From sequence record MN850631.1: a stretch of DNA of 64,000 nucleotides; one strand, written 5' to 3'. The translations under genes and the position numbers were made by a program. A model generated the notes under the pieces. The model saw only the letters and a list, made by a program, of their open reading frames with translations. It was not told the DNA's origin and did no database searches. Positions 1-10,002 of this stretch are shown here, one piece after another; the stretch's first letter is position 1, and the number at the start of each line of letters is the position of its first letter. The DNA comes from Escherichia phage mio.

Positions 1-19
1 CACTTTGCAGAAAGTTAAA

Positions 20-349
20 ATGTACTTTAAACAGAAGAACCGTAAAGTGGTCACTATGGTATCTCTTGGTGGTCAGAGTATGTCTGTGATGGAAGATATC
101 AACCCTAAGAGACCGAGTAAAGGTGTTTGTATAAAAATCACAGGGCATGAAGAGTACATCTCAGTGGATGACTTTAGTGCATTCTGTAATGGTTCTGCTG
201 TCTTTAATGGTTTTCACTATGATATCCGAGTGTACCCAATCAAGGGAGATGACATCATGATGCAGGTATTCGATAATAACAATGGATTTACTCATTTTTA
301 TCAGACAACCAAGTCATCATTAAAAACAGTTCTGGAAACACTGATTTAA
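20..349 (+). CDS. hypothetical protein; start uncertain (track start at 5 is TTG; frame is open to window edge so gene may be 5'-truncated)
   Basis: ORF ending TAA 347-349; first ATG at 20; followed by hairpin terminator. Confidence 0.4.
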   Translation: MYFKQKNRKVVTMVSLGGQSMSVMEDINPKRPSKGVCIKITGHEEYISVDDFSAFCNGSAVFNGFHYDIRVYPIKGDDIMMQVFDNNNGFTHFYQTTKSSLKTVLETLI

Positions 350-360
350 AATATCTTAAG

Positions 361-394
361 AGCCTCCTTAATTGGGGGCTTTTTAATTTTTATA
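361..394 (+). terminator. putative intrinsic terminator
   Basis: AGCCTCC-7nt loop-GGGGGCT stem (one G-U pair) followed by TTTTTAATTTTTAT. Confidence 0.45.
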
Positions 395-399
395 AAATT

Positions 400-1650
400 T
401 ATCGGTTGTCCCAACCTCTGGGTCACCATCATATGTGAATAAAATATCTACCCTTCTTAACAACCTTCTTAATCTTACTCTCTATATAGTTATATAGTAC
501 TATATAGTATCTTAGTATCTATCTAGTGGTCTTAATAGCCCATCTGTATAACCCTTCTAAACACTCTTCTAACAAGCCTTCTTAACAGCCTATACAATCA
601 CCTTAACCATCCCTCTACACCTTCTTAGAAGCTCCTATACACCTCTTAATCTCTATGTCAGCTATGACACTCTCTATAGGTGTTCACTAGGTATTACTAA
701 GCCTCTATATAGACTGTTTTAACAAACTTAACAGGAATATCTTTACAGACCTTATCTCACAAGGTCTAACACGGTACTAACAAGGTATCTTATAAGCCTG
801 TTTCTACCTGTATTTTTAAAAGACTGTCTAGGTAATTATTCAGAATTTTAAAATTTTTATAAAATAGGACTATCAAGTCATTTTTTAGGGTCTTTGAAGG
901 AACTCAAAAATATCTGTAGAAGATGTATATCTGCTTGGTAGCCCTTAACAGCTCCCTTACAAGTACTTTGCAAAATTTTAAAATATCCTTAACAATCTCT
1001 TAACGGCTACTACATCCTCTTAACATCTCTTCAGAGGTCTTAACAGATTCTTAACAGAACTAACAAGGCTGTAACAAGTTCTTAACAGATGATACATGGT
1101 CTTTATAGTCTCTTAACAGATGACTAACAAGAGCTAACAAGTTAATTTTTAAGAGTTATTTTGTTAAGATAATTAACAAGTTTCTAACAAGTCTTTAATC
1201 TTTTTAACAAGCTATTAACATGGTCACTATCTCTGGTCTTATCGTTCCCTTTCCCTCTTAGTGATTCTTTAAATAGCCCTCTTAAAAGCTCTCTATAGCT
1301 CTTTGTAAGCTCTTTTAAGCCTCTTCCTAGTAATTACACCCCAACTATGTAGAAAGCTCTTTATAAGGCTTTACAGAGGCTTTAAAGGCTATGTCAAAGA
1401 CTCTTACAAGGCTTTTACGTGGTCTTAACAGAGATTTAACAAGGGACTAACAAGTTGCTAACAAGTGTCTTAAAAGCATAACTATGTAGGGATTGTTAAG
1501 AAATTGTTAAGAAAATGTTAAGGGGGCTAGCATTTACGTAACTTTTAAGCTACTTCAAAGTAACTTTATAGCCCCTTTAACATACTTTTAAGACACTAAC
1601 AAGCCCTTTTTAGTTATTCACAAGAATACTAACGAGATGATAAAGCTTAC
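400..1650. repeat. ORF-free array of short direct repeats (YTAACAR(G) more than 25 copies; TATAGT/CTATAG clusters; AT-rich AATTTTAAAAT stretches)
   Basis: Motifs CTTAACAG, CTAACAAG, TTAACAAG recur on the plus strand, densest 990-1220 and 1425-1475; no ORF of 60 aa or more in any frame between 349 and 2007. Confidence 0.6.
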
Positions 1651-1916
1651 ACCCTTATAAGATTCTTTTAAGGCTCTGGGAAGCTTTATAAAGGACTTTT
1701 TAGGGTGAGTTAATGCAATCCCTTAAGTTAGGTTGATAAGGCCGTTATAGGGCTTTATAGAGCGTTTAAATGGTTGCCCTTCCCTTTCGGGTTATGGGCT
1801 TATATTTAAGTTGATTTGATAAAAGGCTATAGAGTAAGCTATAGAGTTATTGCTTTTTAAGGTCTGATAAGATTCTGGAAAGGAAAGGGAAAGGATTGTA
1901 TAAGGATTGGATAGAC

Positions 1917-1997
1917 GTAAAAAAGCCCCTATGAGATAGATTCTATCGAATCAATATGAAGGGGCTATATAAAGGTATCTGGGGCTAAATAGCCCCG
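1917..1997 (-). terminator. putative terminator region at end of leftward early gene array
   Basis: Hairpin GGGGCTA-AAT-TAGCCCC (1981-1997) and AGCCCCT...AGGGGCT (1924-1966) followed by T-run on the minus strand, just downstream of stop at 2007. Confidence 0.4.
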
Positions 1998-2006
1998 CTG
2001 CGTCGA

Positions 2007-2255
2007 TTAGTTAGTGCCTTCTTTGTCGTAGTACAGGGAGACAATTTTTTCACCCCAATAGTGAAAAGTGTAACCATCTTTAAGAACTTCCTGTTTTGTT
2101 TCTTTCCAGAACTCATCAGAAGGATTATAGTCTTTTATGGTCTGACTGATAAGACCTTTCACCATTTCAAAGGCGTTGTCAGTGCCTACAAGGTCAAATT
2201 TAACATCCAGAGAGGAAAAACCGAACTCGTTAACAGTAGCGCGGATAGTTGCCAT
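2007..2255 (-). CDS. hypothetical early protein (82 aa); track ORF 2007..2513 trimmed
   Basis: ATG at 2253-2255 preceded by AGGAGA RBS in conserved element; longer track ORF reads through the intercistronic element. Confidence 0.55.
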   Translation of the reverse strand: MATIRATVNEFGFSSLDVKFDLVGTDNAFEMVKGLISQTIKDYNPSDEFWKETKQEVLKDGYTFHYWGEKIVSLYYDKEGTN

Positions 2256-2322
2256 TTTTGAATCTCCTAGTTTAAGGGTTTTATTTAGTGGGGAGGTTAT
2301 CGCCTCCCCGTTGATTAGTAAT
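2256..2322 (-). promoter_or_regulatory. conserved intercistronic element, hairpin type A
   Basis: Core CATTTTTGAATCTCCTAGTTTAAGG..TTAGTGG plus perfect stem GGGGAGG-TTATCG-CCTCCCC (2290-2309) then GTTGATTAGTAATTTAC. Confidence 0.5.
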
Positions 2323-2586
2323 TTACTGCATGTTGGCGTATGTTGCAAGCCTTTTTTCGTTGTATTTTGTAAGAATCTCACAAGATAAAACATCGTAATT
2401 TGTAACAGCGTTGCCTTTGTCGAGGTCAAAGAATCCAAATGTTTTACCATCTTTGAATCCGACAACTTCGTAAGACTCTTTGATGATTTCACCATTGAAC
2501 AAATCGCTTTCAATGCGGTGTAATAATGCTACGTTTTCTTTGTCGGTTGCAATTTGTAAAAGTGTGGTTAATTCTACGTTTTTCAT
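2323..2586 (-). CDS. hypothetical early protein (87 aa)
   Basis: ATG at 2584-2586, RBS GGAG; flanked by conserved elements. Confidence 0.55.
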   Translation of the reverse strand: MKNVELTTLLQIATDKENVALLHRIESDLFNGEIIKESYEVVGFKDGKTFGFFDLDKGNAVTNYDVLSCEILTKYNEKRLATYANMQ

Positions 2587-2652
2587 CTTGATAACTCCAG
2601 TTTAGGACTTTATTTAGTGGGGAAGGTCATTCCCTCCCCGTTGATTGACAAT
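2587..2652 (-). promoter_or_regulatory. conserved intercistronic element, hairpin type A (imperfect stem)
   Basis: Core ..CTCCAGTTTAGGACTTTATTTAGTGG plus GGGGAAGG-TCAT-TCCCTCCCC then GTTGATTGACAATTTAC. Confidence 0.45.
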
Positions 2653-3183
2653 TTACAGATTTTTGATTGTCTCGTCAATATCTTTTTCAATATCTTTTAA
2701 AGTTTTTTCTAAGTTCTTGATATTGAACGTTAAACCTTCACCTAGAGTCTTAGAGTAACCGCTAGGGCGTAAATCATGCAGCTTGATTTCTTCCACATTG
2801 GATAAGTTTACCATCTCACCATTTGCAGCATAGGCTATAGATACAGTGTTTTCAGGCGAGTTGTAAAATTTGTTCAAGGACTTGATAGAACGTTCATAAG
2901 CCATTTTATAACCGTTTAAAAGGCTTTTAACGTGATTGTGAACGTTTTTACACTCATCTAGATAAATCTCTAAGAATAACGGTAATAATTCCGCTACAGC
3001 TTGCATAAAGTGAGAAACTACAACAGTAGAAACATTACGACGATGGACGTAATAAGCCCCGTTTTCTGATTTGGTGATTGTTGCAAAATGTACACCATTA
3101 CAACGGAATTCATAGGTATCTTTAACAGGCTTAGACATAACACTATTTGAACGAATGAAGTTGATAGCTTTAAACTTGTTCAT
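2653..3183 (-). CDS. hypothetical early protein (176 aa)
   Basis: ATG 3181-3183 with AGGAGA RBS in conserved element. Confidence 0.6.
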   Translation of the reverse strand: MNKFKAINFIRSNSVMSKPVKDTYEFRCNGVHFATITKSENGAYYVHRRNVSTVVVSHFMQAVAELLPLFLEIYLDECKNVHNHVKSLLNGYKMAYERSIKSLNKFYNSPENTVSIAYAANGEMVNLSNVEEIKLHDLRPSGYSKTLGEGLTFNIKNLEKTLKDIEKDIDETIKNL

Positions 3184-3404
3184 TTTTGAATCTCCTAGTT
3201 TAAGGACTTTACTTAGTGGGGAGGTTATCCCTCCCGTTGATTAGTAATTTACTTGTTTTGATATCTGATTGCAAGCAATTTTTTAAGCTTACCTATAAAG
3301 AATCTTTTAAGTTAATCCCTTTTAAATAAACCCCCCTCGAACAAAGTTACCAATGTCAATAGGGATTGTCAACACTTTTTTAAAAGTTTTTTGTAAGTTG
3401 TTGA
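3184..3404 (-). promoter_or_regulatory. extended intercistronic region: type A element plus additional promoter-like hexamers
   Basis: Type A core and GGGGAGG-TTAT-CCCTCCC hairpin at 3184-3250; minus-strand TTGACA hexamers at 3354-3359 and 3368-3373; 221 bp gap versus ~65-95 bp elsewhere. Confidence 0.4.
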
Positions 3405-3746
3405 TTAACTGATGAATATTTTTTCAGGTTTTACGTAGCTGATACGCTGATTTTTTAGTAGGCTATCCCATAACAAGGCGGCAATGTGCCCATATCCGGC
3501 CTCACGCAGCCCCTTCATCGTTTCAACTCGACTCTCAAAACGATTTGCGTAATACTCGCTATTAAGTGTCGTTTTGTTCCCTTCGTTATCTGTATGGATG
3601 ATTTGCATCACTTGAAAGGGGCTGACATCCTCGCCTTTGTTCCACTGCTCAAAGTATTTTAGGCACTGCATAGGTGACATCTTATCACTGACTTGAGTTG
3701 ACCAAGATGAATTTTCTTTATTGGTAATTACGGTTACATAAGCCAT
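3405..3746 (-). CDS. hypothetical early protein (113 aa)
   Basis: ATG 3744-3746 with RBS in conserved element. Confidence 0.6.
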   Translation of the reverse strand: MAYVTVITNKENSSWSTQVSDKMSPMQCLKYFEQWNKGEDVSPFQVMQIIHTDNEGNKTTLNSEYYANRFESRVETMKGLREAGYGHIAALLWDSLLKNQRISYVKPEKIFIS

Positions 3747-3835
3747 TTTTGAATCTCCAGTTTAGGACTTTACTTAGTGGGGAAGGTCATTCCCTCCCCG
3801 TTGATTGACAATTTACAGACTTTTATCAGGCTTGT
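3747..3835 (-). promoter_or_regulatory. conserved intercistronic element, hairpin type A
   Basis: Core CATTTTTGAATCTCCAGTTTAGGACTTTACTTAGTGG plus GGGGAAGG..TCCCTCCCC then GTTGATTGACAATTTAC. Confidence 0.45.
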
Positions 3836-4069
3836 CTAGTCTTTTTCAATGATAATTTCATATTGACCATCAACACTGTCAAAATAGATTCCATCGTCAT
3901 CTTCTGTCTTAAAGTAACATTGTATGTCATCACTGGCGGGGTAGTCTTGTCTTGCTATCTGACAAACTTGAATAGCATTTTCTTTACTTCCTGTGAACTC
4001 CTCAAGCCCTTTAAAATCGCATGAATGACCATTACAGATGGAAAGGATGAGGTAAACGGTTGTAAGCAT
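3836..4069 (-). CDS. hypothetical early protein (77 aa), Cys-containing, acidic
   Basis: ATG 4067-4069; upstream spacer 4070-4132 lacks the conserved core (divergent element). Confidence 0.5.
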   Translation of the reverse strand: MLTTVYLILSICNGHSCDFKGLEEFTGSKENAIQVCQIARQDYPASDDIQCYFKTEDDDGIYFDSVDGQYEIIIEKD

Positions 4070-4132
4070 GATTTAAGCCCTCTAAATGGCCCTGTATGGG
4101 CCTTAAGTTGGAAATTAGTGTCTTTGTACTGA

Positions 4133-4696
4133 TTAACCTAAAAGGTCTTTTAAATTGCGTTCTGTGATGTTTGCCGTGATTTTATCCAGCAGGTCACAAA
4201 ACACGGAACTATCACCGCTATTCTGTACAATTTTCGCCATACTTAACAAATCATCGTCAACATAGCCTAAATTGCGGTTAGTTGCATCTGGTACAAAGAA
4301 AGGCGCATACATCGCACTAAATTTCGTTGAGTGGATACTAACAATCCAATTTTTATCAAAGTATCCGGTAAAGCTGGCAATTTCGCTCATGTTGTCACAA
4401 GAATAATCGTCCTCAAGTTCTTCCTCTGGGATATCCATTTCGATAACAATCACTTCCTGCGTTTCCATTTGGAAAGCTGCTGTGATAAGCCCCGACTCTA
4501 AGGCGCTTTGAATGCAGCGTTCACGGATATAAGAATCTTCCTCATCTTCCAGACATTCCGTTTTGATAACCTTGTTCATTGGGTAAACGTAGAAACAATC
4601 GTCCATGTAGGAACAGTTCCAGATACCTTCAGGTTTATCGCCACCATTCAGCAGGTTTACAAAGTTTTTGAGTGTAGTTCCGTGATAGCATTTCAT
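4133..4696 (-). CDS. hypothetical early protein (187 aa), acidic
   Basis: ATG 4694-4696 with AGGAGA RBS in conserved element. Confidence 0.6.
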   Translation of the reverse strand: MKCYHGTTLKNFVNLLNGGDKPEGIWNCSYMDDCFYVYPMNKVIKTECLEDEEDSYIRERCIQSALESGLITAAFQMETQEVIVIEMDIPEEELEDDYSCDNMSEIASFTGYFDKNWIVSIHSTKFSAMYAPFFVPDATNRNLGYVDDDLLSMAKIVQNSGDSSVFCDLLDKITANITERNLKDLLG

Positions 4697-4788
4697 TTTT
4701 GAATCTCCTAGTTTAAGGACTTGATTTAGTGGTAAAGCTCTTTATCTGGGGCTTACTTTATCGAACTATAAGCCCCTTGTAAAGTACT
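4697..4788 (-). promoter_or_regulatory. conserved intercistronic element, hairpin type B
   Basis: Core CATTTTTGAATCTCCTAGTTTAAGGACTTGATTTAGTGG plus AAAGCTCTTTATCT-GGGGCTTA-N13-TAAGCCCC-TTGTAAAGTACTTT. Confidence 0.5.
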
Positions 4789-4992
4789 TTATCGGTTATT
4801 TTTGATAACTTTTAAAACTGCGCGGTATCCTAAGCAATAAGAATCACCGAAGAGCGACCGACCCATGAATGAATCCTCTTTGATATCCTTTGCAGTGACA
4901 GTCTTTTCTACGCCGTGAAAAAGAACTATATCGCCAACTTTGATATCTTTGATATGAGTAGTTTCAATGTTTAAACCGTTGATAATAGCCAT
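4789..4992 (-). CDS. hypothetical early protein (67 aa)
   Basis: ATG 4990-4992 with RBS in conserved element. Confidence 0.5.
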   Translation of the reverse strand: MAIINGLNIETTHIKDIKVGDIVLFHGVEKTVTAKDIKEDSFMGRSLFGDSYCLGYRAVLKVIKNNR

Positions 4993-5092
4993 TCTTGAAT
5001 CTCCTAGTTTAAGGACTTTACTTAGTGGGGAGGTTATCCCTCCCGTTGATTAGTAATTTACTTGTTTTAAAAATCAATGTCAACAAAATTTT
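4993..5092 (-). promoter_or_regulatory. conserved intercistronic element, hairpin type A, with sigma70-like hexamers upstream on minus strand
   Basis: Core plus GGGGAGG-TTAT-CCCTCCC; minus strand reads TTGACA-17nt-TAAATT just upstream of hairpin. Confidence 0.5.
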
Positions 5093-5497
5093 TTAGAGTT
5101 CTGCATAAATTGCATCGCAGATACCACGAAAATCATGATTTGTCAAATTACGTTGTAACCAAGTGGCGAAAAAGTCAGCGATTGCAAAGTTAGCGTCATA
5201 CTCGACAGATAGCCACACTTTAACAGCAAACCGAAACATTTTCAAATCAAGCTCTTTATTCATTATCTTAGATTTGCCTAACATGTCGGTCATTTCATAT
5301 TGTGCACCGTCTAGCGTGATACCTGCTGCAACGTCAGCCAATGAGTTTTTTACGTTTTCAACGTCTAAGATAACGCTTTGAATCTTCCCAATAATGTTGT
5401 GCAATGTTTCGTCCGGTGCTGATGACGTAATAACATTAATCCGGTTAACGGTCAAACGTGCTTTTAAGATTGATAACTCGCGATTATTAATAGCCAT
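5093..5497 (-). CDS. hypothetical early protein (134 aa)
   Basis: ATG 5495-5497; RBS in variant core CATTTTTTAGTTCTCCAATTTAGG. Confidence 0.6.
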   Translation of the reverse strand: MAINNRELSILKARLTVNRINVITSSAPDETLHNIIGKIQSVILDVENVKNSLADVAAGITLDGAQYEMTDMLGKSKIMNKELDLKMFRFAVKVWLSVEYDANFAIADFFATWLQRNLTNHDFRGICDAIYAEL

Positions 5498-5583
5498 TTT
5501 TTAGTTCTCCAATTTAGGATTTAGTAGTAAAGCTCTTTATCTGGGGCTTACTTTATCGAACTATAAGCCCCTTGTAAAGTACT
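5498..5583 (-). promoter_or_regulatory. conserved intercistronic element, hairpin type B
   Basis: Variant core plus GGGGCTTA-CTTTATCGAACTA-TAAGCCCC then TTGTAAAGTACTTT. Confidence 0.5.
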
Positions 5584-5856
5584 TTATACTAAATGCAGCT
5601 TTTTGCCTTTTACCATGATGTAACTTGTTGCGCTATTGCTATGCACATCTTGATAAATTCTGCGCAAACGGCCTTCGTAGTATACTTTCCAACTGGTTGG
5701 AATCTTTTTCCCGTATCCTGTAGCAGTTTTTTGGAGTCCTGCAAGTTGCCAATCTAAGATATGTTGTTCGGCTTGTAAATCCTCGAAGTGCATTACACCG
5801 TTCACATAGTGGCGCAAAGTTACATTTAGAGTACGACCGTTGTTAGTAGTATACAT
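5584..5856 (-). CDS. hypothetical early protein (90 aa)
   Basis: ATG 5854-5856 with RBS in conserved element. Confidence 0.55.
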   Translation of the reverse strand: MYTTNNGRTLNVTLRHYVNGVMHFEDLQAEQHILDWQLAGLQKTATGYGKKIPTSWKVYYEGRLRRIYQDVHSNSATSYIMVKGKKLHLV

Positions 5857-5943
5857 TTTCTAATCTCCTAGTTTAAGGACTTTACTTAGTGGGGAGGTCA
5901 TCCCTCCCGTTGATTAGTAATTTACTTGTTTTAAAAACCAAAA
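5857..5943 (-). promoter_or_regulatory. conserved intercistronic element, hairpin type A
   Basis: Core CATTTTCTAATCTCCTAGTTTAAGGACTTTACTTAGTGG plus GGGGAGG-TCAT-CCCTCCC; minus strand TTGATT-17nt-TAAATT upstream. Confidence 0.5.
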
Positions 5944-6276
5944 TCAAGAGAAATTTTTTCGTTTGCTCAATTCTTGAACAATTACAGCGTAGTAGTCTTT
6001 TAAGTCACTGATATTTAAAGCATTTATCAGTGAATTATAATCATCGACTAACTGAAAATCATCTTTGAAGATATCACTTATCTGATAGGTTTTCGCTTTG
6101 AATCTGAAGCTCATTTCTAGCCGCTTTATTTGCTCATCACTTAAACGCTCCAGAAAGCTCATTACAAGGCTACTATTGACCTGTTGCGTGATTGCCTTAC
6201 TTGCCAGATTGTAGGCGCTGTAAGCCTTATAAAGTGCTATAATGGCGATGATTGCAGTGATGCCCATCATTAGCAT
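5944..6276 (-). CDS. hypothetical early protein (110 aa) with N-terminal hydrophobic helix
   Basis: ATG 6274-6276; N-terminus MLMMGITAIIAIIALYKAY; overlaps next ORF by 7 nt. Confidence 0.55.
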   Translation of the reverse strand: MLMMGITAIIAIIALYKAYSAYNLASKAITQQVNSSLVMSFLERLSDEQIKRLEMSFRFKAKTYQISDIFKDDFQLVDDYNSLINALNISDLKDYYAVIVQELSKRKNFS

Positions 6277-6566
6277 GGTGTTACCTCTCTGCGTGATACT
6301 TTACCATTTACAGTTATCTCATAAGCTTCTAATAAATCACTTTCAGATTTAACAGGGCTTTTAAAAGTATCATCATAAACATTAATTTGCAATACAGGCT
6401 TTTTATACTCCCTGCAACTATTCCATAAGCAAATTACTACGCGACGGCCTTTTATTTTGCCGTGTAACCATTCCATAACATCATGACTATTTCTTGATGT
6501 CTCGATAAAATCGATTTTATTGAGTAATTTGCTTAGATTTTCACGCACTTGATTTGATAATTTCAT
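6270..6566 (-). CDS. hypothetical early protein (98 aa)
   Basis: ATG 6564-6566 with RBS in conserved element. Confidence 0.55.
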   Translation of the reverse strand: MKLSNQVRENLSKLLNKIDFIETSRNSHDVMEWLHGKIKGRRVVICLWNSCREYKKPVLQINVYDDTFKSPVKSESDLLEAYEITVNGKVSRREVTPC

Positions 6567-6658
6567 TTTTGAATCTCCTAGTTTAAGGGCTTTATTTGAT
6601 AAATCTCTTTATCTGGGGCTATCCTACCAGCTTGTTAGCCCCGTGTAAAGAAATCTAT
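6567..6658 (-). promoter_or_regulatory. conserved intercistronic element, hairpin type B variant
   Basis: Core CATTTTTGAATCTCCTAGTTTAAGGGCTTTATTTG plus GGGGCTA-N14-TAGCCCC then GTGTAAAGAAATC. Confidence 0.45.
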
Positions 6659-7171
6659 TTAGTTCTTAAAGATATTCATCACTGAATCTTTCAACGATTC
6701 CAAACGTTCTAATACTTCAGATTCTGCGTCTGCGTTGTTCACCTCTTCTTTTAGTCTATCCTCTAAATCATCGCCGTCACGATAGCACCAATCGAAAGCG
6801 TATCCAAGATAAAAACTTTCTAAAACCGTGCTACCGTTTGCATCCACAACTTTCGCGGCAAGGCTATACTCTGAAGCCTCTAAATCTCTTTCTAGTTCTT
6901 TCTGTAAGCTTGTGTAAGCCTCTTTCGATGGATTCTCACGGCCTTGTTTTGCATAGTCACTTGAAAGCTGCTTAAGGCTGTAATGCAAAGGGATTGCATA
7001 TTTAAACTCATTACGCTGACAGTTGGTGTTTTTAATAGTTACACCGCCTTGATGGTCATCTGTAAACTCCCAATTATCCATATTATGGCTTGCTTCGTAG
7101 CAATTAACAGCCTCATAAATGATGGAAAATTTTTCTTTTACAACTTCAAAGGTAGCGTCTACAGTTTTCAT
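6659..7171 (-). CDS. hypothetical early protein (170 aa), acidic C-terminal half
   Basis: ATG 7169-7171 with RBS in conserved element. Confidence 0.6.
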   Translation of the reverse strand: MKTVDATFEVVKEKFSIIYEAVNCYEASHNMDNWEFTDDHQGGVTIKNTNCQRNEFKYAIPLHYSLKQLSSDYAKQGRENPSKEAYTSLQKELERDLEASEYSLAAKVVDANGSTVLESFYLGYAFDWCYRDGDDLEDRLKEEVNNADAESEVLERLESLKDSVMNIFKN

Positions 7172-7266
7172 TTTTGAATCTCCTAGTTTAAGGACTTGAT
7201 TTAGTGGTAAAGCTCTTTATCTGGGGCTTAAGATATCAACTTTTAAGCCCCTTGTAAAGTACTTTA
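7172..7266 (-). promoter_or_regulatory. conserved intercistronic element, hairpin type B
   Basis: Core plus GGGGCTTAA-N13-TTAAGCCCC then TTGTAAAGTACTTT. Confidence 0.5.
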
Positions 7267-7524
7267 TCAGATTAAATTGCCAGTTAATGATAAGTGCATT
7301 TTATAGCCTTTTTTGGTAAAAACGTTCACTTTACCGAGTGATTTTACACCTTTAAAAAGGTTGTTTGAACTGCGTTTTAAGGTTAGTTGCTTATCAGCTT
7401 TCACGCCCCACCTTACAGCAGTTTGTTTTCCGTTGTCAACCACTTTTCCGCATAACTTTTTAGCCATAACGCGAGCGTCATCACGAGTCTTTGCAGTAAT
7501 TACAACGTTTTTGATAATAGCCAT
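7267..7524 (-). CDS. hypothetical early protein (85 aa), lysine-rich; start moved from TTG (7539) to ATG (7524)
   Basis: ATG 7522-7524 with GGAGA RBS inside conserved core; track start codon is TTG. Confidence 0.5.
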   Translation of the reverse strand: MAIIKNVVITAKTRDDARVMAKKLCGKVVDNGKQTAVRWGVKADKQLTLKRSSNNLFKGVKSLGKVNVFTKKGYKMHLSLTGNLI

Positions 7525-7613
7525 TTTTAAGTTCTCCAATTTAGGATTTAGTGGTAAAGCTCTTTATCTGGGGCTTACTTTATCGAACTATAAGCCCCTT
7601 GTAAAGTACTTTA
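7525..7613 (-). promoter_or_regulatory. conserved intercistronic element, hairpin type B
   Basis: Variant core CATTTTTAAGTTCTCCAATTTAGG plus GGGGCTTA-CTTTATCGAACTA-TAAGCCCC. Confidence 0.5.
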
Positions 7614-7994
7614 TTAGTTAATTTTGAAAATTGTCACATAACCATCGCTCCCGATGATTTGTGATACCCCAGCTTTTTCTACTTGATAGCCCATATTTTC
7701 AAGATGGTAAACAGCATCATCGTAACCATATGCGCCACCCTGATAACGTCGCTTATCACATTTTATCAGGTTTTTACCGCGTCCAGCAAGTGCATTCAGT
7801 ACGGCTTTTTCACTTGATAGTGTACCATCTATCATGGTTGCCGTGTAATGGTTGATTTTATTCCCATTAATATCATACTTAAAATTGAATGCGTGAACAA
7901 TAATCAATTTACCGTTAAATTTTTCATCAAGTGACTTCTCCAGTGCGTTGCGGAAGTTGTCTTTATTGATGAATTTCGGTGCACGATAAGCCAT
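7614..7994 (-). CDS. hypothetical early protein (126 aa)
   Basis: ATG 7992-7994 with RBS in conserved element. Confidence 0.6.
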   Translation of the reverse strand: MAYRAPKFINKDNFRNALEKSLDEKFNGKLIIVHAFNFKYDINGNKINHYTATMIDGTLSSEKAVLNALAGRGKNLIKCDKRRYQGGAYGYDDAVYHLENMGYQVEKAGVSQIIGSDGYVTIFKIN

Positions 7995-8082
7995 TTTAGA
8001 ATCTCCTAGTTTAAGGTAAGTTAGTAAAGCTCTTTATCTGGGGCTTAAGATATCAGCTTTTAAGCCCCTTGTAAAGTACTTT
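7995..8082 (-). promoter_or_regulatory. conserved intercistronic element, hairpin type B
   Basis: Core CATTTTAGAATCTCCTAGTTTAAGG plus GGGGCTTAA-N13-TTAAGCCCC then TTGTAAAGTACTTT. Confidence 0.5.
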
Positions 8083-8289
8083 TTATATATCGTAATAGTA
8101 AACCGCTGTCTGTTTTATATGTCGCTTTGTATTCTTTGTTAGGTAGCAATTAGAGTTAATTGCCGTTTCTACATAGTTGCAATAATCAGCTTCTGATATT
8201 CTACGCCATGCGCCGCACACTTGCATATAAAAACGTTTTGCCTTTGTGTTAACGTTGGTTGTAACCATCAATTCGCGACTGTACATCAT
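8083..8289 (-). CDS. hypothetical early protein (68 aa); first gene of the leftward array
   Basis: ATG 8287-8289; upstream partial core CATTTTGGATTCTCCAGTTTAGGAAG. Confidence 0.5.
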   Translation of the reverse strand: MMYSRELMVTTNVNTKAKRFYMQVCGAWRRISEADYCNYVETAINSNCYLTKNTKRHIKQTAVYYYDI

Positions 8290-8539
8290 TTTGGATTCTC
8301 CAGTTTAGGAAGTGGGCTTGCTTGCCCGTCTGATGCAAATATTAGATAACCATACTCAAAGAGTCAATAGGAATTTTAAAAATATTTTTGCAAGAATTGT
8401 AATGAAACGGGTGCGCGCGACTACCACAAAACAGAACTACAATCAAGAATTATTTTTCAATCCGCTACAAATTTTTCTGTTGACTTTTATTTCCAGATGT
8501 GGTAGCCTTGTGAGAAATGGCGACATTCCCACCTGCACC

Positions 8540-8725
8540 CACCTACCTGCACAATTCTAAAATGATTTTTCTTGCCCGACCTGAGTGGGTTCTGCACGTT
8601 TTGAAAATGAAAAAGCTCTTTGGAGATTACCTGCACAGTTTGAAAATGAATTTTCTCTTTGGAGTTCAAAATTCTCTCTACAGATTTCTCTACAGAACTC
8701 TACCTGCACAATTCTAAAATGAAAA
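8540..8725. repeat. direct repeats in ORF-free gap (CTACCTGCACAATTCTAAAATGA twice; two tandem ~38 bp CTGCACNTTTTGAAAATGA...CTCTTTGGAG units)
   Basis: Identical 23-mer at 8543-8565 and 8700-8722; related units at about 8590-8627 and 8628-8665. Confidence 0.55.
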
Positions 8726-8795
8726 AGCCCTCCTTACCTGAAAAATTTACCAGATAAGAAAGGCTTAGTCTATTGTGAATATTCTACAGAGTTTC

Positions 8796-9581
8796 TTAGT
8801 TCTTTGCGTCTAAGAAGGTAACTTCCGGTGAAGAGAAAATTCCCTCAACATCCTCATCAGTTCTTGCATAGATATATGTATCTGCATCACTGCCAAATGT
8901 TACTGCAATTCTGTGATTGCTCTTCGACAGGTGGGTAACTAGAGCGTTACTTAGAGACATCTTTTCAACCGGAGGGTTACTTTGATGTACCTTACCTTTT
9001 CTTCGTCTGAAGAGGGTAACTGCATCGTCAGTGAACACTACTACACCTGCAAAGTATTCTGGTTCACAGTAGTTCTTCCAACCTGAGCGTAACTTGTGGT
9101 ACATCTCTCCTTCGTAGACATATAGATAGACATCTACACTCTTCATCACCTGATTAATGATAACGGTGACGGCTTGAGGGTCAAGTCCACCGATACCTGC
9201 ACCAATCATAGGTAAACCAACTTTCTTCAACTGATTAACTTCACAGTATCTGTTAAGTTGCTTCAAAGATGACTCTAAAGCACTGTATCGGGCATCTTTA
9301 CCAGTCTTAAGCTGAGTGTAAAGATTGGCTATACGGCCTTGTTTTAAACGTGCTACAGAGAAATTGCCTAGCAAATTTTCACAGGGTTTGTGACCTATAC
9401 CACCTGCATACAGATAAACTTCTGTATCGGTCTCATATGCTTTTGGGTAAAGTTTAGAAATCTTATCAGCGATACCTGCACCCATTAAGTTCATACAGTT
9501 GCAACCGTGACCAATGATATCAAACTTACCTTTATCAAATGCGGAGAAGATATCCCCATTGATGATTTTTACAATACCCAT
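8796..9581 (-). CDS. macrodomain protein (TARG1/DarG-like ADP-ribose binding/hydrolase fold) with ~100 aa C-terminal extension
   Basis: N-terminal GDIFSAFDKGKFDIIGHGCNCMNLMGAGIA...GLPMIGAGIGGL matches the macrodomain pattern; ATG 9579-9581 overlaps upstream stop. Confidence 0.65.
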   Translation of the reverse strand: MGIVKIINGDIFSAFDKGKFDIIGHGCNCMNLMGAGIADKISKLYPKAYETDTEVYLYAGGIGHKPCENLLGNFSVARLKQGRIANLYTQLKTGKDARYSALESSLKQLNRYCEVNQLKKVGLPMIGAGIGGLDPQAVTVIINQVMKSVDVYLYVYEGEMYHKLRSGWKNYCEPEYFAGVVVFTDDAVTLFRRRKGKVHQSNPPVEKMSLSNALVTHLSKSNHRIAVTFGSDADTYIYARTDEDVEGIFSSPEVTFLDAKN

Positions 9582-9782
9582 CTAGCATCTCTCCCAAGAT
9601 TCTTTATCTTCTGAAGGTTTTACACGTTGTCCTTCGTGGTCTACCCAGATACATCCACAACCTTCACAGATTACTGGCATTGCATAGCCAGCTTTAAAGT
9701 CATCTTCAGTGATAAGACCTTTTAAGTCACCTGTATCACGTCCAAACATTTCGATAGCACAATCTTTGCAGAAGTCAGCCAT
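9582..9782 (-). CDS. small Cys-rich protein (66 aa), putative zinc ribbon; track start (GTG 9860) replaced by ATG 9782
   Basis: CKDC...CEGCGC motifs; ATG 9780-9782 overlaps upstream stop by 8 nt. Confidence 0.45.
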   Translation of the reverse strand: MADFCKDCAIEMFGRDTGDLKGLITEDDFKAGYAMPVICEGCGCIWVDHEGQRVKPSEDKESWERC

Positions 9783-10002
9783 TGATAATTGCCTCTTGAA
9801 TGATGATACCTTTACCACAACGACTTTTAAAGTCTTCCAATGGCTGGGAGATAAAGCCACGTAAGCAATAACTGAATGCTAATTTTTTCCTGTAGACTAT
9901 CACATCATTTGCTGTAAAAGGAATCACTTCATTCCTTCCAATAAATACTGCTGAACGTACAATCTTGCAGGTCTTTTTATCTCTGGCTAGTATTACTTTC
10001 AT
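9775..10002 (-). CDS. hypothetical protein (75 aa)
   Basis: ATG 10000-10002; part of tightly overlapping leftward operon. Confidence 0.45.
   Translation of the reverse strand: MKVILARDKKTCKIVRSAVFIGRNEVIPFTANDVIVYRKKLAFSYCLRGFISQPLEDFKSRCGKGIIIQEAIING

What the first reader, a model, noticed from the sequence alone, without database searches (positions are those of the whole stretch)
2007..8310. Array of about 15 small early-gene cassettes separated by a conserved intercistronic element with two alternating hairpin types
Each small leftward ORF (67-187 aa, no recognisable domains) is preceded by a near-identical ~40 nt core (complement of RBS AGGAGA plus CATTTTTGAATCTCCTAGTTTAAGGACTTTAcTTAGTGG) and one of two stem-loops: type A GGGGAGG-N4-6-CCTCCCC (six copies) or type B GGGGCTTA-N13-14-TAAGCCCC flanked by AAAGCTCTTTATCT and TTGTAAAGTACTTT (six copies). 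On the transcribed strand the hairpins lack a following U-tract, so they look more like 5'-UTR stability, processing or protein-binding elements combined with promoters than simple terminators. Cassette arrays of this kind often hold host-takeover and anti-defence genes and swap by recombination at the repeats.
Basis: seen in the sequence. Interest (0 to 1): 0.65.

Follow-up and report, generated by a model that had tools for sequence, protein, structure and literature searches.

The report
Promoter-hairpin cassettes in Felix O1-like phage
A Felix O1-type phage carries about 15 small early genes, most preceded by a repeated 90-100 nt control unit (host-type promoter, RNA hairpin, strong ribosome site); related phages gain, lose and reorder genes at these units, much as T4-like phages do at their PeSL elements.

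Summary
The window is a Felixounavirus. On the minus strand of 1918-8367 lie 15 small ORFs; 12 have a canonical element (6 type A, 6 type B) and one has an A-like variant. The order is not strictly alternating.

Type A is TTGnnn-N17-TAAATT, with the hairpin exactly 10 nt after the -10, so it should sit at the 5' end of its own transcript. Type B is CTTTACA-N17-TAnnnT, with the hairpin inside the promoter spacer. In 49 distinct cores, -12T and -11A never vary although the surrounding loop does.

Non-Watson-Crick pairs are G.U on the sense strand only, and compensatory changes occur, so the hairpins are selected as RNA. Type B extends to a roughly 20-bp interrupted helix resembling an RNase III site. 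No internal hairpin has a U-tract; canonical terminators flank the array.

Across 13 Ounavirinae genomes, whole cassettes are gained, lost, duplicated and reordered, and the junctions are hybrid elements.

The closest known kind is the PeSL of T4-like phages, but the geometry differs. The repeats were listed without interpretation in the 2010 Felix O1 genome paper. No transcript mapping was found. This is a new variant of a known kind, of moderate interest.

The parts
8290..8367 (-). A-like variant element before the first cassette: TTGACT-N17-TAATAT promoter, GGGC-aagcaa-GCCC hairpin, CTAAACTGGAGA ribosome site
   Evidence: The same hairpin subtype occurs in Moogle and Michonne A elements.
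7995..8085 (-). Type B element (extended helix 8022-8085; CTTTACA-N17-TATCTT with TGn; UTR and SD)
7525..7615 (-). Type B element (helix 7552-7615; CTTTACA-N17-TAAAGT)
7172..7268 (-). Type B element (helix 7205-7268; CTTTACA-N17-TATCTT with TGn)
6567..6659 (-). Type B element, 7-bp-stem subtype (GGGGCTA/TAGCCCC; CTTTACA-N17-TAGGAT with TGn; continuous 13-bp lower stem)
5498..5588 (-). Type B element (helix 5525-5588; TAAAGT)
4697..4793 (-). Type B element (helix 4730-4793; TAAAGT)
5857..5947 (-). Type A element: TTGATT-N17-TAAATT, ACTAATCAAC, GGGAGG-gatga-CCTCCC hairpin, UTR and SD
4993..5083 (-). Type A element: TTGACA-N17-TAAATT, hairpin GGGAGG-gataa-CCTCCC
3747..3838 (-). Type A element: TAGACA-N17-TAAATT, hairpin GGGGAGGG-aatga-CCTTCCCC (contains a G.U pair)
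3184..3274 (-). Type A element: TTGCAA-N17-TAAATT, hairpin GGGAGG-gataa-CCTCCC
2587..2678 (-). Type A element: TTGACG-N17-TAAATT (the promoter lies inside the end of the preceding ORF), hairpin GGGGAGGG/CCTTCCCC
2256..2348 (-). Type A element: TTGCAA-N17-TAAATT, hairpin GGGGAGG-cgataa-CCTCCCC
8083..8289 (-). Cassette ORF, 68 aa (cluster g15)
7614..7994 (-). Cassette ORF, 126 aa (g16)
7267..7524 (-). Cassette ORF, 85 aa (g11)
6659..7171 (-). Cassette ORF, 170 aa (g1)
6270..6566 (-). Cassette ORF, 98 aa (g2)
5944..6276 (-). ORF, 110 aa (g8). It overlaps g2 by 7 nt and has no element of its own, so it is probably translationally coupled.
5584..5856 (-). Cassette ORF, 90 aa (g3)
5093..5497 (-). 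Cassette ORF, 134 aa (g9)
4789..4992 (-). Cassette ORF, 67 aa (g23)
4133..4696 (-). Cassette ORF, 187 aa (g5), homologue of Bas63 gp107. Weak ADP-ribosyltransferase-like fold; nearly invariant N-terminal HGT.
3836..4069 (-). ORF, 77 aa (g6). It is preceded by an unrelated hairpin (GGCCC-ataca-GGGCC) and has no promoter.
3405..3746 (-). Cassette ORF, 113 aa (g13)
2653..3183 (-). Cassette ORF, 176 aa (g4)
2323..2586 (-). Cassette ORF, 87 aa (g21); absent from Bas63, UAB_Phi87 and FO1a
2007..2255 (-). Cassette ORF, 82 aa (g10), last of the array
8725..8766 (-). Canonical intrinsic terminator (17-bp stem plus T-run) after the macro-domain gene, upstream of the array
   Evidence: equals t13 of Felix O1
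1918..1966 (-). Compound hairpin plus U6: the intrinsic terminator that closes the array
   Evidence: relatives annotate a terminator at this place

Best explanation
The array is a battery of self-contained early-expression modules, functionally equivalent to the PeSL cassettes of T4-like phages but built differently. Each 90-100 nt element supplies a promoter read by the host sigma-70 RNA polymerase, a hairpin that acts in the sense RNA, and a conserved leader with a strong Shine-Dalgarno site (CCT(T)AAACT(A)GGAGAnnnAAAATG).

Type A. An A-tract, a -35 (TTGACA-like), 17 bp and a -10 (TAAATT) are followed after exactly 10 nt by the hairpin. The transcript should therefore start about 2-4 nt before the stem. 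The hairpin is then a 5'-terminal stem-loop, and its most likely role is to protect the mRNA from 5'-end-dependent decay. It cannot be an efficient terminator, because it would abort its own transcript.

Type B. The -35 (CTTTACA) lies just 5' of the stem, and the -10 (TAnnnT) spans the 3' part of the loop and the first base of the 3' arm. The element's own transcript should therefore start right after the hairpin, near the A of AGAUAAAG. The hairpin is made only in RNA that reads through from upstream. There it extends to a roughly 20-bp helix: a 12-position lower stem, a 3x3 internal loop and an 8-9 bp upper stem. I infer that this helix marks and stabilises the 3' end of the upstream message by processing. 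RNase III is the leading candidate enzyme, as in the T7 early region.

Recombination. Because the elements are near-identical repeats, homologous recombination between them deletes, inserts, duplicates and reorders cassettes. It also homogenises the copies within a lineage.

What is shown and what is inferred. Shown: the repeats, the promoter-like conservation pattern, the sense-strand pairing signature, the covariation, and cassette turnover with hybrid junctions. Inferred: promoter activity, transcription start positions, and the stabiliser and processing roles.
For: Identity and context. The window is a Felixounavirus. The array sits after rIIA/rIIB, pnk, the spanins and a macro-domain gene, and before a terminator and a 1.6-kb ORF-free gap.

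Type B promoter.
- In 92 distinct elements from Felixouna-, Moogle- and Kolesnikvirus, TAnnnT lies 17 (twice 18) bp after CTTTACA in 91.
- In 49 distinct cores, -12T and -11A have zero entropy and -7T has 0.14 bit, while neighbouring loop positions carry 1.4-1.9 bits. This is the classic information profile of a -10 hexamer.
- TG at -15/-14 accompanies the weaker hexamers.

Type A promoter.
- In 92 distinct elements the -35 is TTGACA, TTGCAA, TAGACA, TTGACG, TTGACT or TTGATT, the spacer is 17 bp, and the -10 is TAAATT in 66. There are always 10 nt to the hairpin.
- An A-tract lies upstream of the -35.
- Two of these elements are annotated as promoters in AYO145A.

RNA-level hairpins.
- In the B upper stem, the non-Watson-Crick pairs are 38 G.U and 7 mismatches on the sense strand, against 1 G.U and 44 mismatches on the antisense strand.
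- The A hairpins have 18 G.U pairs on the sense strand, all of which are mismatches on the antisense strand.
- The A hairpin sequence differs between subtypes while its position is fixed.
- The two-helix B structure is 97.5% paired in 95 distinct sequences, with GC->UA double changes at two pairs. It beats 500 of 500 shuffles and all slid controls.
- B elements fold at -25 to -26 kcal/mol, z-score -3.6 to -6.5.

Not terminators. No U-tract follows any internal hairpin, while canonical terminators flank the array.

Constraint. B helices are 94-97% and A elements 92-93% identical to four relatives, against 74-80% at third codon positions.

Shuffling.
- Cassette presence, absence, duplication and order differ among 13 genomes, always in whole ORF-plus-element units.
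- Where g21 is missing, the junction is a hybrid A element, with different crossover points in FO1a and UAB_Phi87.
- Michonne has an ORF-less tandem B pair.
- Every B copy in a genus shares a genus-specific stem (GGGGCTTA, GGGGTTTA or GGTGTTTA/TAAGCACC). Identity is 0.81-0.89 within a genus and 0.65-0.82 between genera.

Timing. Felix O1 ORFs 16, 20, 21 and 22 of the array peak at 5 min by RT-PCR (PMC3185647).
Against: - No transcription start sites, 3' ends or half-lives have been measured for any Ounavirinae phage in the searchable literature.
- All promoter and RNA roles rest on sequence conservation.
- Covariation comes from a few events in related, possibly gene-converted copies. The shuffle statistics therefore overstate independence, as the caveat in the output warns.
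- The strict conservation of the B flanks (CTTTACA, AGATAAAGAGCTTTAC) could reflect promoter, RNA helix or protein binding, and these cannot be separated here.
- Felix O1 RT-PCR puts some array genes (17, 19, 23) at 25 min. The timing does not follow element type.
- Type-B-initiated mRNAs would lack a 5' hairpin, so a stabiliser cannot be a universal need.
Confidence: 0.7

Rival explanations
1. The hairpins, at least those of type B, are transcription terminators or attenuators that insulate each cassette from upstream transcription. This is the role proposed and tested for the stem-loops of T4-type PeSLs.
For: The B stem is GC-rich and lies immediately upstream of the predicted start of the next transcript. 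PeSL stem-loops (GGGG...CCCC) terminated transcription in reporter assays (PMC2839356). Promoter-coupled terminators are reported to be common in bacteria (bioRxiv 10.64898/2026.08.19.745784).
Against: No U-tract follows any of the 12 hairpins: after B comes AGAUAAAGAGC, and after A comes ACUAAGUAAAG. The terminator scan and the published annotations flag none of them, yet they do flag the two flanking terminators. In type A the hairpin lies downstream of its own promoter, so efficient termination there would defeat the promoter.
Confidence: 0.12
2. The inverted repeats are DNA operators for a phage-encoded dimeric regulator that switches the early promoters off, or on. The type B palindrome occupies the promoter spacer and -10, the classic position for a repressor.
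For: The 8-bp half-sites have centres 21 bp apart, and they overlap the -10 in B and +4 to +24 in A. The paired G-C to T-A change in both arms in Kolesnikvirus would equally preserve a DNA palindrome.
Against: The departures from symmetry are almost all of the kind that keeps pairing only on the sense strand (38 G.U versus 1). A double-stranded DNA operator does not predict this. The A and B stems have unrelated sequences, and the A stems vary between subtypes at a fixed position, so several different regulators would be needed. The lower B stem also shows sense-specific wobble pairs.
Confidence: 0.08
3. The elements are sites for site-specific or single-strand recombination, as attC sites are in integrons. 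The hairpin is then a folded single-stranded DNA substrate, and expression signals are secondary.
For: The region is an array of small promoter-proximal cassettes bounded by imperfect hairpins. Strand-specific pairing is also expected for folded single-stranded DNA, where G.T is tolerated. The PeSL authors speculated about a recombination protein that recognises GGGG...CCCC.
Against: Crossover points differ between independent g21 losses: inside the -10 in FO1a, and after CAAC in UAB_Phi87. This fits homologous rather than site-specific exchange. No integrase or recombinase is annotated within about 10 kb of the array in 12 relatives, and the Felix O1 paper does not mention one. The invariant -12T/-11A in the loop has no role in this model.
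Confidence: 0.03
4. The repeats are selfish or accidental duplications (MITE-like spread, or a by-product of gene duplication) with no regulatory role.
For: The elements are short, multi-copy, contain inverted repeats and evolve in concert.
Against: They always occur in one orientation and at one place: between a stop codon and the next start, with the SD at the correct distance. They are conserved like first and second codon positions across genera that have diverged at the protein level. They show a promoter-type information profile. The flanking ORFs are unrelated to each other.
Confidence: 0.05

Closest known systems
PeSLs (promoter-early stem-loops) of T4-like phages (Arbiol et al. 2010, PMC2839356; Comeau et al. 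2014, PMC4122927)
   Same: Both are repeated intergenic composite motifs clustered among small non-essential ORFs of unknown function. Both contain a sigma-70-like early promoter with a 17-bp spacer (T4/PST consensus TTTACW-N17-TAYWAT; type B here has TTTACA-N17-TAnnnT). Both have an AT-rich tract upstream of the -35 (type A), a G-run/C-run stem-loop, and an SD plus ATG at the 3' end. Both are associated with insertions, deletions and replacements between close relatives, with chimeric elements at the junctions.
   Different: In PeSLs the stem-loop lies just upstream of the -35 and was shown to terminate transcription. Here it lies inside the spacer and -10 (type B) or at about +3 of the transcript (type A), it has no U-tract, and it shows a sense-RNA pairing signature. 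The phage lineage is different (Ounavirinae). There are two co-existing architectures that share one leader. Mini-circles have not been examined.
RNase III processing sites of the T7 early region (R0.3-R1.3); established knowledge, not tested here
   Same: Both are intercistronic, roughly 60-nt irregular hairpins (upper stem, internal loop, lower stem; about two helical turns) between small early genes transcribed by host polymerase. In T7, cleavage in the internal loop leaves a stabilising 3' hairpin on the upstream message. The B helix has these dimensions.
   Different: T7 sites do not overlap promoters. No cleavage data exist for the B helix, and there is no sequence similarity or Rfam match.
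5'-terminal stabilising stem-loops such as the ompA 5' UTR (Emory, Bouvet and Belasco 1992); established knowledge
   Same: A stable hairpin predicted within a few nucleotides of the 5' end, followed by an unstructured leader and an SD. This matches type A.
   Different: The 5' end is predicted from promoter geometry (a fixed 10 nt from the -10), not mapped. No half-life data exist.
Promoter-coupled terminators in bacteria (Fletcher et al., bioRxiv 10.64898/2026.08.19.745784)
   Same: One short DNA segment encodes both an RNA stem-loop for the upstream unit and promoter elements for the downstream unit, with the two ends about 10 bp apart.
   Different: In those elements the stem-loop DNA supplies the -35, and a T-tract precedes the -10. 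In type B the -35 is upstream of the stem, the loop supplies the -10, and there is no T-tract.
The 57-bp and 39-bp 'direct repeats' of phage Felix O1 (Whichard et al. 2010, PMC3185647)
   Same: These are the same sequences. The 57-bp repeat is the type B core, and the 39-bp repeat is the promoter half of type A.
   Different: They were reported only as direct repeats between genes 15/16, 19/20, 18/19 and 20/21. No promoter, hairpin, RNA or recombination role was proposed, and the paper states that transcriptional organisation is unknown.

Membership tests
PeSL (T4-like phages) | Repeated composite intergenic motif clustered in a variable region of small ORFs | tested here: met
   13 elements in 6.4 kb and none elsewhere in the 64-kb window. 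Gene content is variable.
PeSL (T4-like phages) | Sigma-70-like early promoter (-35, about 17 bp, -10) | tested here: met
   Met at sequence level only: (invariant -12T/-11A, 17-bp spacer). Promoter activity was not measured.
PeSL (T4-like phages) | Stem-loop placed just upstream of the promoter's -35 | tested here: not met
   The stem-loop lies between the -35 and +1 (type B), or 10 nt downstream of the -10 (type A).
PeSL (T4-like phages) | Stem-loop acts as a transcription terminator or attenuator | tested here: inconclusive
   There is no U-tract, and neither the scan nor published annotation flags the hairpins. The type A geometry argues against this role.
PeSL (T4-like phages) | SD and start codon at the 3' end of the element | tested here: met
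PeSL (T4-like phages) | Elements coincide with indels or replacements between related phages, with chimeric junctions | tested here: met
PeSL (T4-like phages) | Formation of cassette mini-circles | not testable with these tools
   Needs inverse PCR on infected cells or virion DNA.
RNase III processing site (T7 early type) | Irregular double-stranded RNA of about two helical turns, with an internal loop between the upper and lower stems | tested here: met
   12-position lower stem, 3x3 internal loop and 8-9 bp upper stem; 97.5% paired in 95 distinct sequences.
RNase III processing site (T7 early type) | Cleavage by RNase III in vivo or in vitro | not testable with these tools
   No data found.
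Intrinsic (Rho-independent) terminator | GC-rich hairpin followed directly by a U-tract | tested here: not met
   The hairpin is present, but the U-tract is absent at all 12 elements. It is present at the two flanking terminators.
5'-terminal mRNA stabiliser hairpin (ompA type) | Stem-loop within about 4 nt of the transcript's 5' end | tested here: inconclusive
   The hairpin starts exactly 10 nt after the -10 in 92 of 92 A elements, which predicts a 2-4 nt 5' overhang. The start site has not been mapped.
Integron attC cassette array | Adjacent tyrosine-recombinase integrase and a fixed crossover point in the hairpin site | tested here: not met
   No integrase is annotated in the flanks of 12 relatives. 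Crossover positions vary.
Promoter-coupled terminator (Fletcher et al. 2026) | The stem-loop DNA doubles as the -35, and a T-tract lies in the spacer before the -10 | tested here: not met
   The -35 is 5' of the stem, there is no T-tract, and the -10 is in the loop.

The most novel reading that the evidence does not exclude
Type B would be a truly bifunctional 64-bp sequence. Read as DNA, it is a sigma-70 promoter whose spacer and -10 are built from a palindrome. Read as RNA from upstream, the same bases form an RNase III-type helix whose internal loop coincides with the promoter's start site. Primary and processed mRNAs for the downstream gene would then share the same 5' end, and the upstream mRNA would keep a protective 3' hairpin. 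Together with type A (promoter plus 5' cap-like hairpin), this would make the array a self-insulating, self-shuffling expression platform kept uniform by gene conversion.
Probability: 0.25. Interest if true: 0.6.

Novelty: new variant of a known kind. Interest (0 to 1): 0.45.

Why it matters
Felix O1-type phages are widely used for Salmonella and E. coli typing, biocontrol and therapy, and Bas63 is a model phage of the BASEL collection. Yet their transcriptional programme is unmapped; the 2010 genome paper says so explicitly.

This analysis gives a concrete promoter and RNA-structure map for the most variable early region. It shows that PeSL-style modular shuffling is not confined to T4-like phages. 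It also gives exact, cheap predictions:

- where the primary 5' ends should be;
- which two bases should abolish each promoter when mutated;
- which stem changes should alter mRNA ends or stability.

The elements would also be compact, portable expression units for phage engineering. They mark natural insertion points where foreign genes can be placed without disturbing neighbouring genes.

Tried and rejected
- Rfam scan at E <= 1 over window 1-10000 gave only three sub-threshold chance hits, none at an element.
- Pfam found nothing for the 15 ORFs. PHROGs placed all of them in families of unknown function.
- My first literature search was badly framed and returned nothing relevant.
- Searches for Ounavirinae or Felix O1 transcriptomics and start-site mapping found none. 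A Felix O1 resistance paper and a comparative Felixounavirus genomics paper had nothing on this region.
It did add about 25 Ounavirinae loci, which I filtered with nhmmer.
- A simple-terminator reading was rejected for lack of U-tracts and because of the type A geometry.
- An attC-like reading was rejected because crossover points vary and no integrase is present.
- A DNA-operator reading was down-weighted because of the strand-specific G.U pattern.
- I looked for a link between element type and Felix O1 RT-PCR timing and found none.

Full report
**What the window is.** Megablast of 2007-8310 finds 252 phage records, nearly all Felixounavirus (Felix O1-like myoviruses of E. coli, Salmonella and Shigella). 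The best full-length matches are 88-91% identical, and a partial match to JH2 is 97.6%. In annotated relatives the region follows rIIA, rIIB, polynucleotide kinase, the spanins and a macro-domain gene. That gene is window 8796-9581 (Pfam Macro). After the region come a terminator and a roughly 1.6-kb stretch without genes, and then convergent genes.

**Checking the observation.**
- The minus strand of 2007-8289 holds 15 ORFs of 67-187 aa.
- The shared core, the type B pattern and the type A pattern occur 8, 5 (+1 variant) and 6 times. Zero copies are expected in shuffles, and all copies lie on the minus strand between 2253 and 8085.
- Twelve ORFs have a canonical element. ORF 8083-8289 has an A-like variant. 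ORF 5944-6276 overlaps its neighbour and has no element. ORF 3836-4069 has an unrelated hairpin.
- The order is A', B, B, B, B, -, A, B, A, B, -, A, A, A, A. It is not alternating.
- No ORF has a Pfam domain, and all fall in PHROGs of unknown function.
- Against four relatives, third codon positions are 74-80% identical and first and second positions 90-96%, so the ORFs are real genes. The B helices (94-97%) and A elements (92-93%) are conserved like constrained codon positions.

**Anatomy of type A.** Aligned on the start codon, every type A element reads: an A-tract, a -35 hexamer (TTGACA, TTGCAA, TAGACA, TTGACG or TTGATT), 17 nt, TAAATT, ACTAATCAAC, the hairpin, and then ACTAAGTAAAGTCCTTAAACTAGGAGATTCAAAAATG.

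I collected elements with nhmmer from the window, from 12 annotated loci of Felixouna-, Moogle- and Kolesnikvirus, and from further IMG/VR loci. Among 92 distinct type A elements:
- the spacer is always 17 nt;
- the -10 is TAAATT in 66, and otherwise TAAAGT, TAGTAT or TAATAT;
- the hairpin always begins 10 nt after the -10.

A start about 7-8 nt after the -10 puts the stem 2-4 nt from the 5' end of the RNA.

The hairpin sequence differs between subtypes (GGGGAGGG/CCTTCCCC, GGGAGG/CCTCCC, GGTGAGG/CCTCAC, GGGGG/CCCCC, GGGC/GCCC), but its position does not. Its non-Watson-Crick pairs are all G.U on the sense strand: 18, each of which would be a mismatch on the other strand.

A hairpin placed after its own promoter cannot be an efficient terminator. 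A 5'-terminal stabiliser of the ompA type (established knowledge) is the simplest role.

**Anatomy of type B.** The consensus scan lists all six type B elements as TTTACA-17-TAAAGT, TATCTT or TAGGAT, and the two weaker hexamers are preceded by TGn.

- In 92 distinct type B elements, TAnnnT lies 17 (twice 18) bp after an invariant CTTTACA in 91.
- In 49 distinct cores, the loop positions carry 0.4-1.9 bits of entropy. In contrast, -12T and -11A are invariant and -7T is nearly so, while -10 to -8 are the most variable positions of all. This is the information profile of a sigma-70 -10 element, and nothing about a hairpin loop would produce it.
- The promoter therefore straddles the hairpin, and its transcript should begin at about the A of AGATAAAG, just after the 3' arm.

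The energy is -25 to -26 kcal/mol and the z-score -3.6 to -6.5.

I built a covariance model from 11 copies. It recovers 139 sense-strand copies at 61-90 bits, and their reverse strands at only 28-39 bits. On 95 distinct sequences, 97.5% of cells pair. Two pairs show GC->UA double changes (one in each helix). The structure beats all 500 shuffles and all slid registers. The copies are related, however, so the number of independent events is small.

The upper stem's non-Watson-Crick pairs are 38 G.U and 7 mismatches on the sense strand, against 1 G.U and 44 mismatches on the antisense strand. The commonest pair at one lower-stem position is U.G. Selection has therefore acted on the sense RNA, or less likely on that DNA strand, and not on a double-stranded palindrome.

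**Terminators.** None of the 12 hairpins is followed by a U-tract. Neither my scan nor the published annotations mark them as terminators. Both mark the hairpin plus T-run at 8725-8766, and I find a compound hairpin plus U6 at 1918-1966. The phage therefore uses ordinary terminators at the borders of the array and something else inside it.

**Cassette turnover.** I clustered the ORFs of 13 genomes and placed the elements between them.
- The window has 15 genes, Bas63 14 and Felix O1 (FO1a) 9. Michonne has extra genes, a duplicated gene and an ORF-less tandem B pair.
- The Erwinia phages share six of the gene families but in a different order, interleaved with other genes.
- All differences are whole ORF-plus-element units.
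- Where g21 (window 2323-2586) is missing, the remaining element is a hybrid of the two that flank g21 in the window. The crossover lies inside GTAAATT in FO1a, and after GTCAATCAAC in UAB_Phi87. This is homologous exchange at different points, not site-specific exchange.
- Some B elements combine the 5' flank of one subtype with the 3' flank of another.
- All B copies within a genus share a genus-specific stem, and they resemble each other more (0.81-0.89) than copies in other genera (0.65-0.82). Yet orthologous genes keep orthologous elements. This points to concerted evolution.

**Comparison with what is known.** The closest concept is the PeSL of T4-like phages: a repeated unit of AT-rich tract, GGGG...CCCC stem-loop, sigma-70 early promoter and SD in hyperplastic regions. 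PeSLs have been shown to promote transcription, terminate it, recombine and form mini-circles.
- The Ounavirinae elements share the logic and the evolutionary behaviour.
- They fail the defining geometry, because the PeSL stem-loop lies upstream of the -35. They also show no terminator features.
- I therefore say they work like PeSLs, and I do not file them as PeSLs.

The B helix has the size and shape of the T7 early RNase III sites (established knowledge). A cut in its internal loop would give the same 5' end as the embedded promoter. This is inference only. Promoter-coupled terminators are a looser analogy.

The Felix O1 genome paper listed the B core and the A promoter half as 57-bp and 39-bp direct repeats without comment. 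It stated that the transcriptional organisation was unknown. Its RT-PCR places array ORFs 16, 20, 21 and 22 at 5 min, and 17, 19 and 23 at 25 min. I found no start-site or RNA-seq study of these phages.

**Verdict.** The specific RNA functions and the gene functions are untested. This is a new variant of a known kind of system, of moderate interest.

Noticed in passing
window 8520-8740 (minus strand): Four copies of a ~24-nt motif, TCATTTT(A/C)(G/A)AA(T/C)(T/G)GTGCAGGTA, lie between the macro-domain gene's terminator and the first cassette promoter (repeat finder families D7/D8). No promoter consensus was found on that strand there. Bas63 and UAB_Phi87 annotate two tiny opposite-strand ORFs in the equivalent place.
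   Followed up: no
window ~350-1915: About 1.6 kb between the array's terminator and the convergent genes holds only short ORFs (none longer than about 45 aa). The same gap is present in Moogle, Michonne, Sf13, FO1a and the Erwinia phages. It is rich in short tandem repeats such as TATATAGTA, CCTTCTTAACAG and ATTGTTAAGAA, and it has no Rfam match. It could be an origin, a packaging site or non-coding RNA genes.
   Followed up: partly
[not shown]
   Followed up: partly
window 1981-1996 (minus strand): Just after the last cassette's stop codon lies GGGGCTAtttAGCCCCAGATA. This is a short-loop copy of the type B stem and its 3' flank, without the -35 or -10. It may be a decayed B element, and it sits ahead of the terminal terminator.
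   Followed up: no
L006 (Citrobacter phage Michonne) 6239-6431: Two type B elements stand in tandem with no ORF between them. The junction is ...GGAGAATCTAAAATG|CTTTACA..., and the neighbouring 85-aa gene (g11) is duplicated. This looks like an 'empty cassette', probably left by a microhomology deletion (AAAATG/AAAGTG).
   Followed up: partly
window 3836-4069 and 4133-4696; L003, L007, L008: The gene pairs g5-g6 and g2-g8 are always adjacent and share one element in Felixouna- and Mooglevirus. In the Erwinia-type phages g2 sits next to g6, and g8 is absent. Linkage within a cassette is therefore lineage-specific.
   Followed up: no
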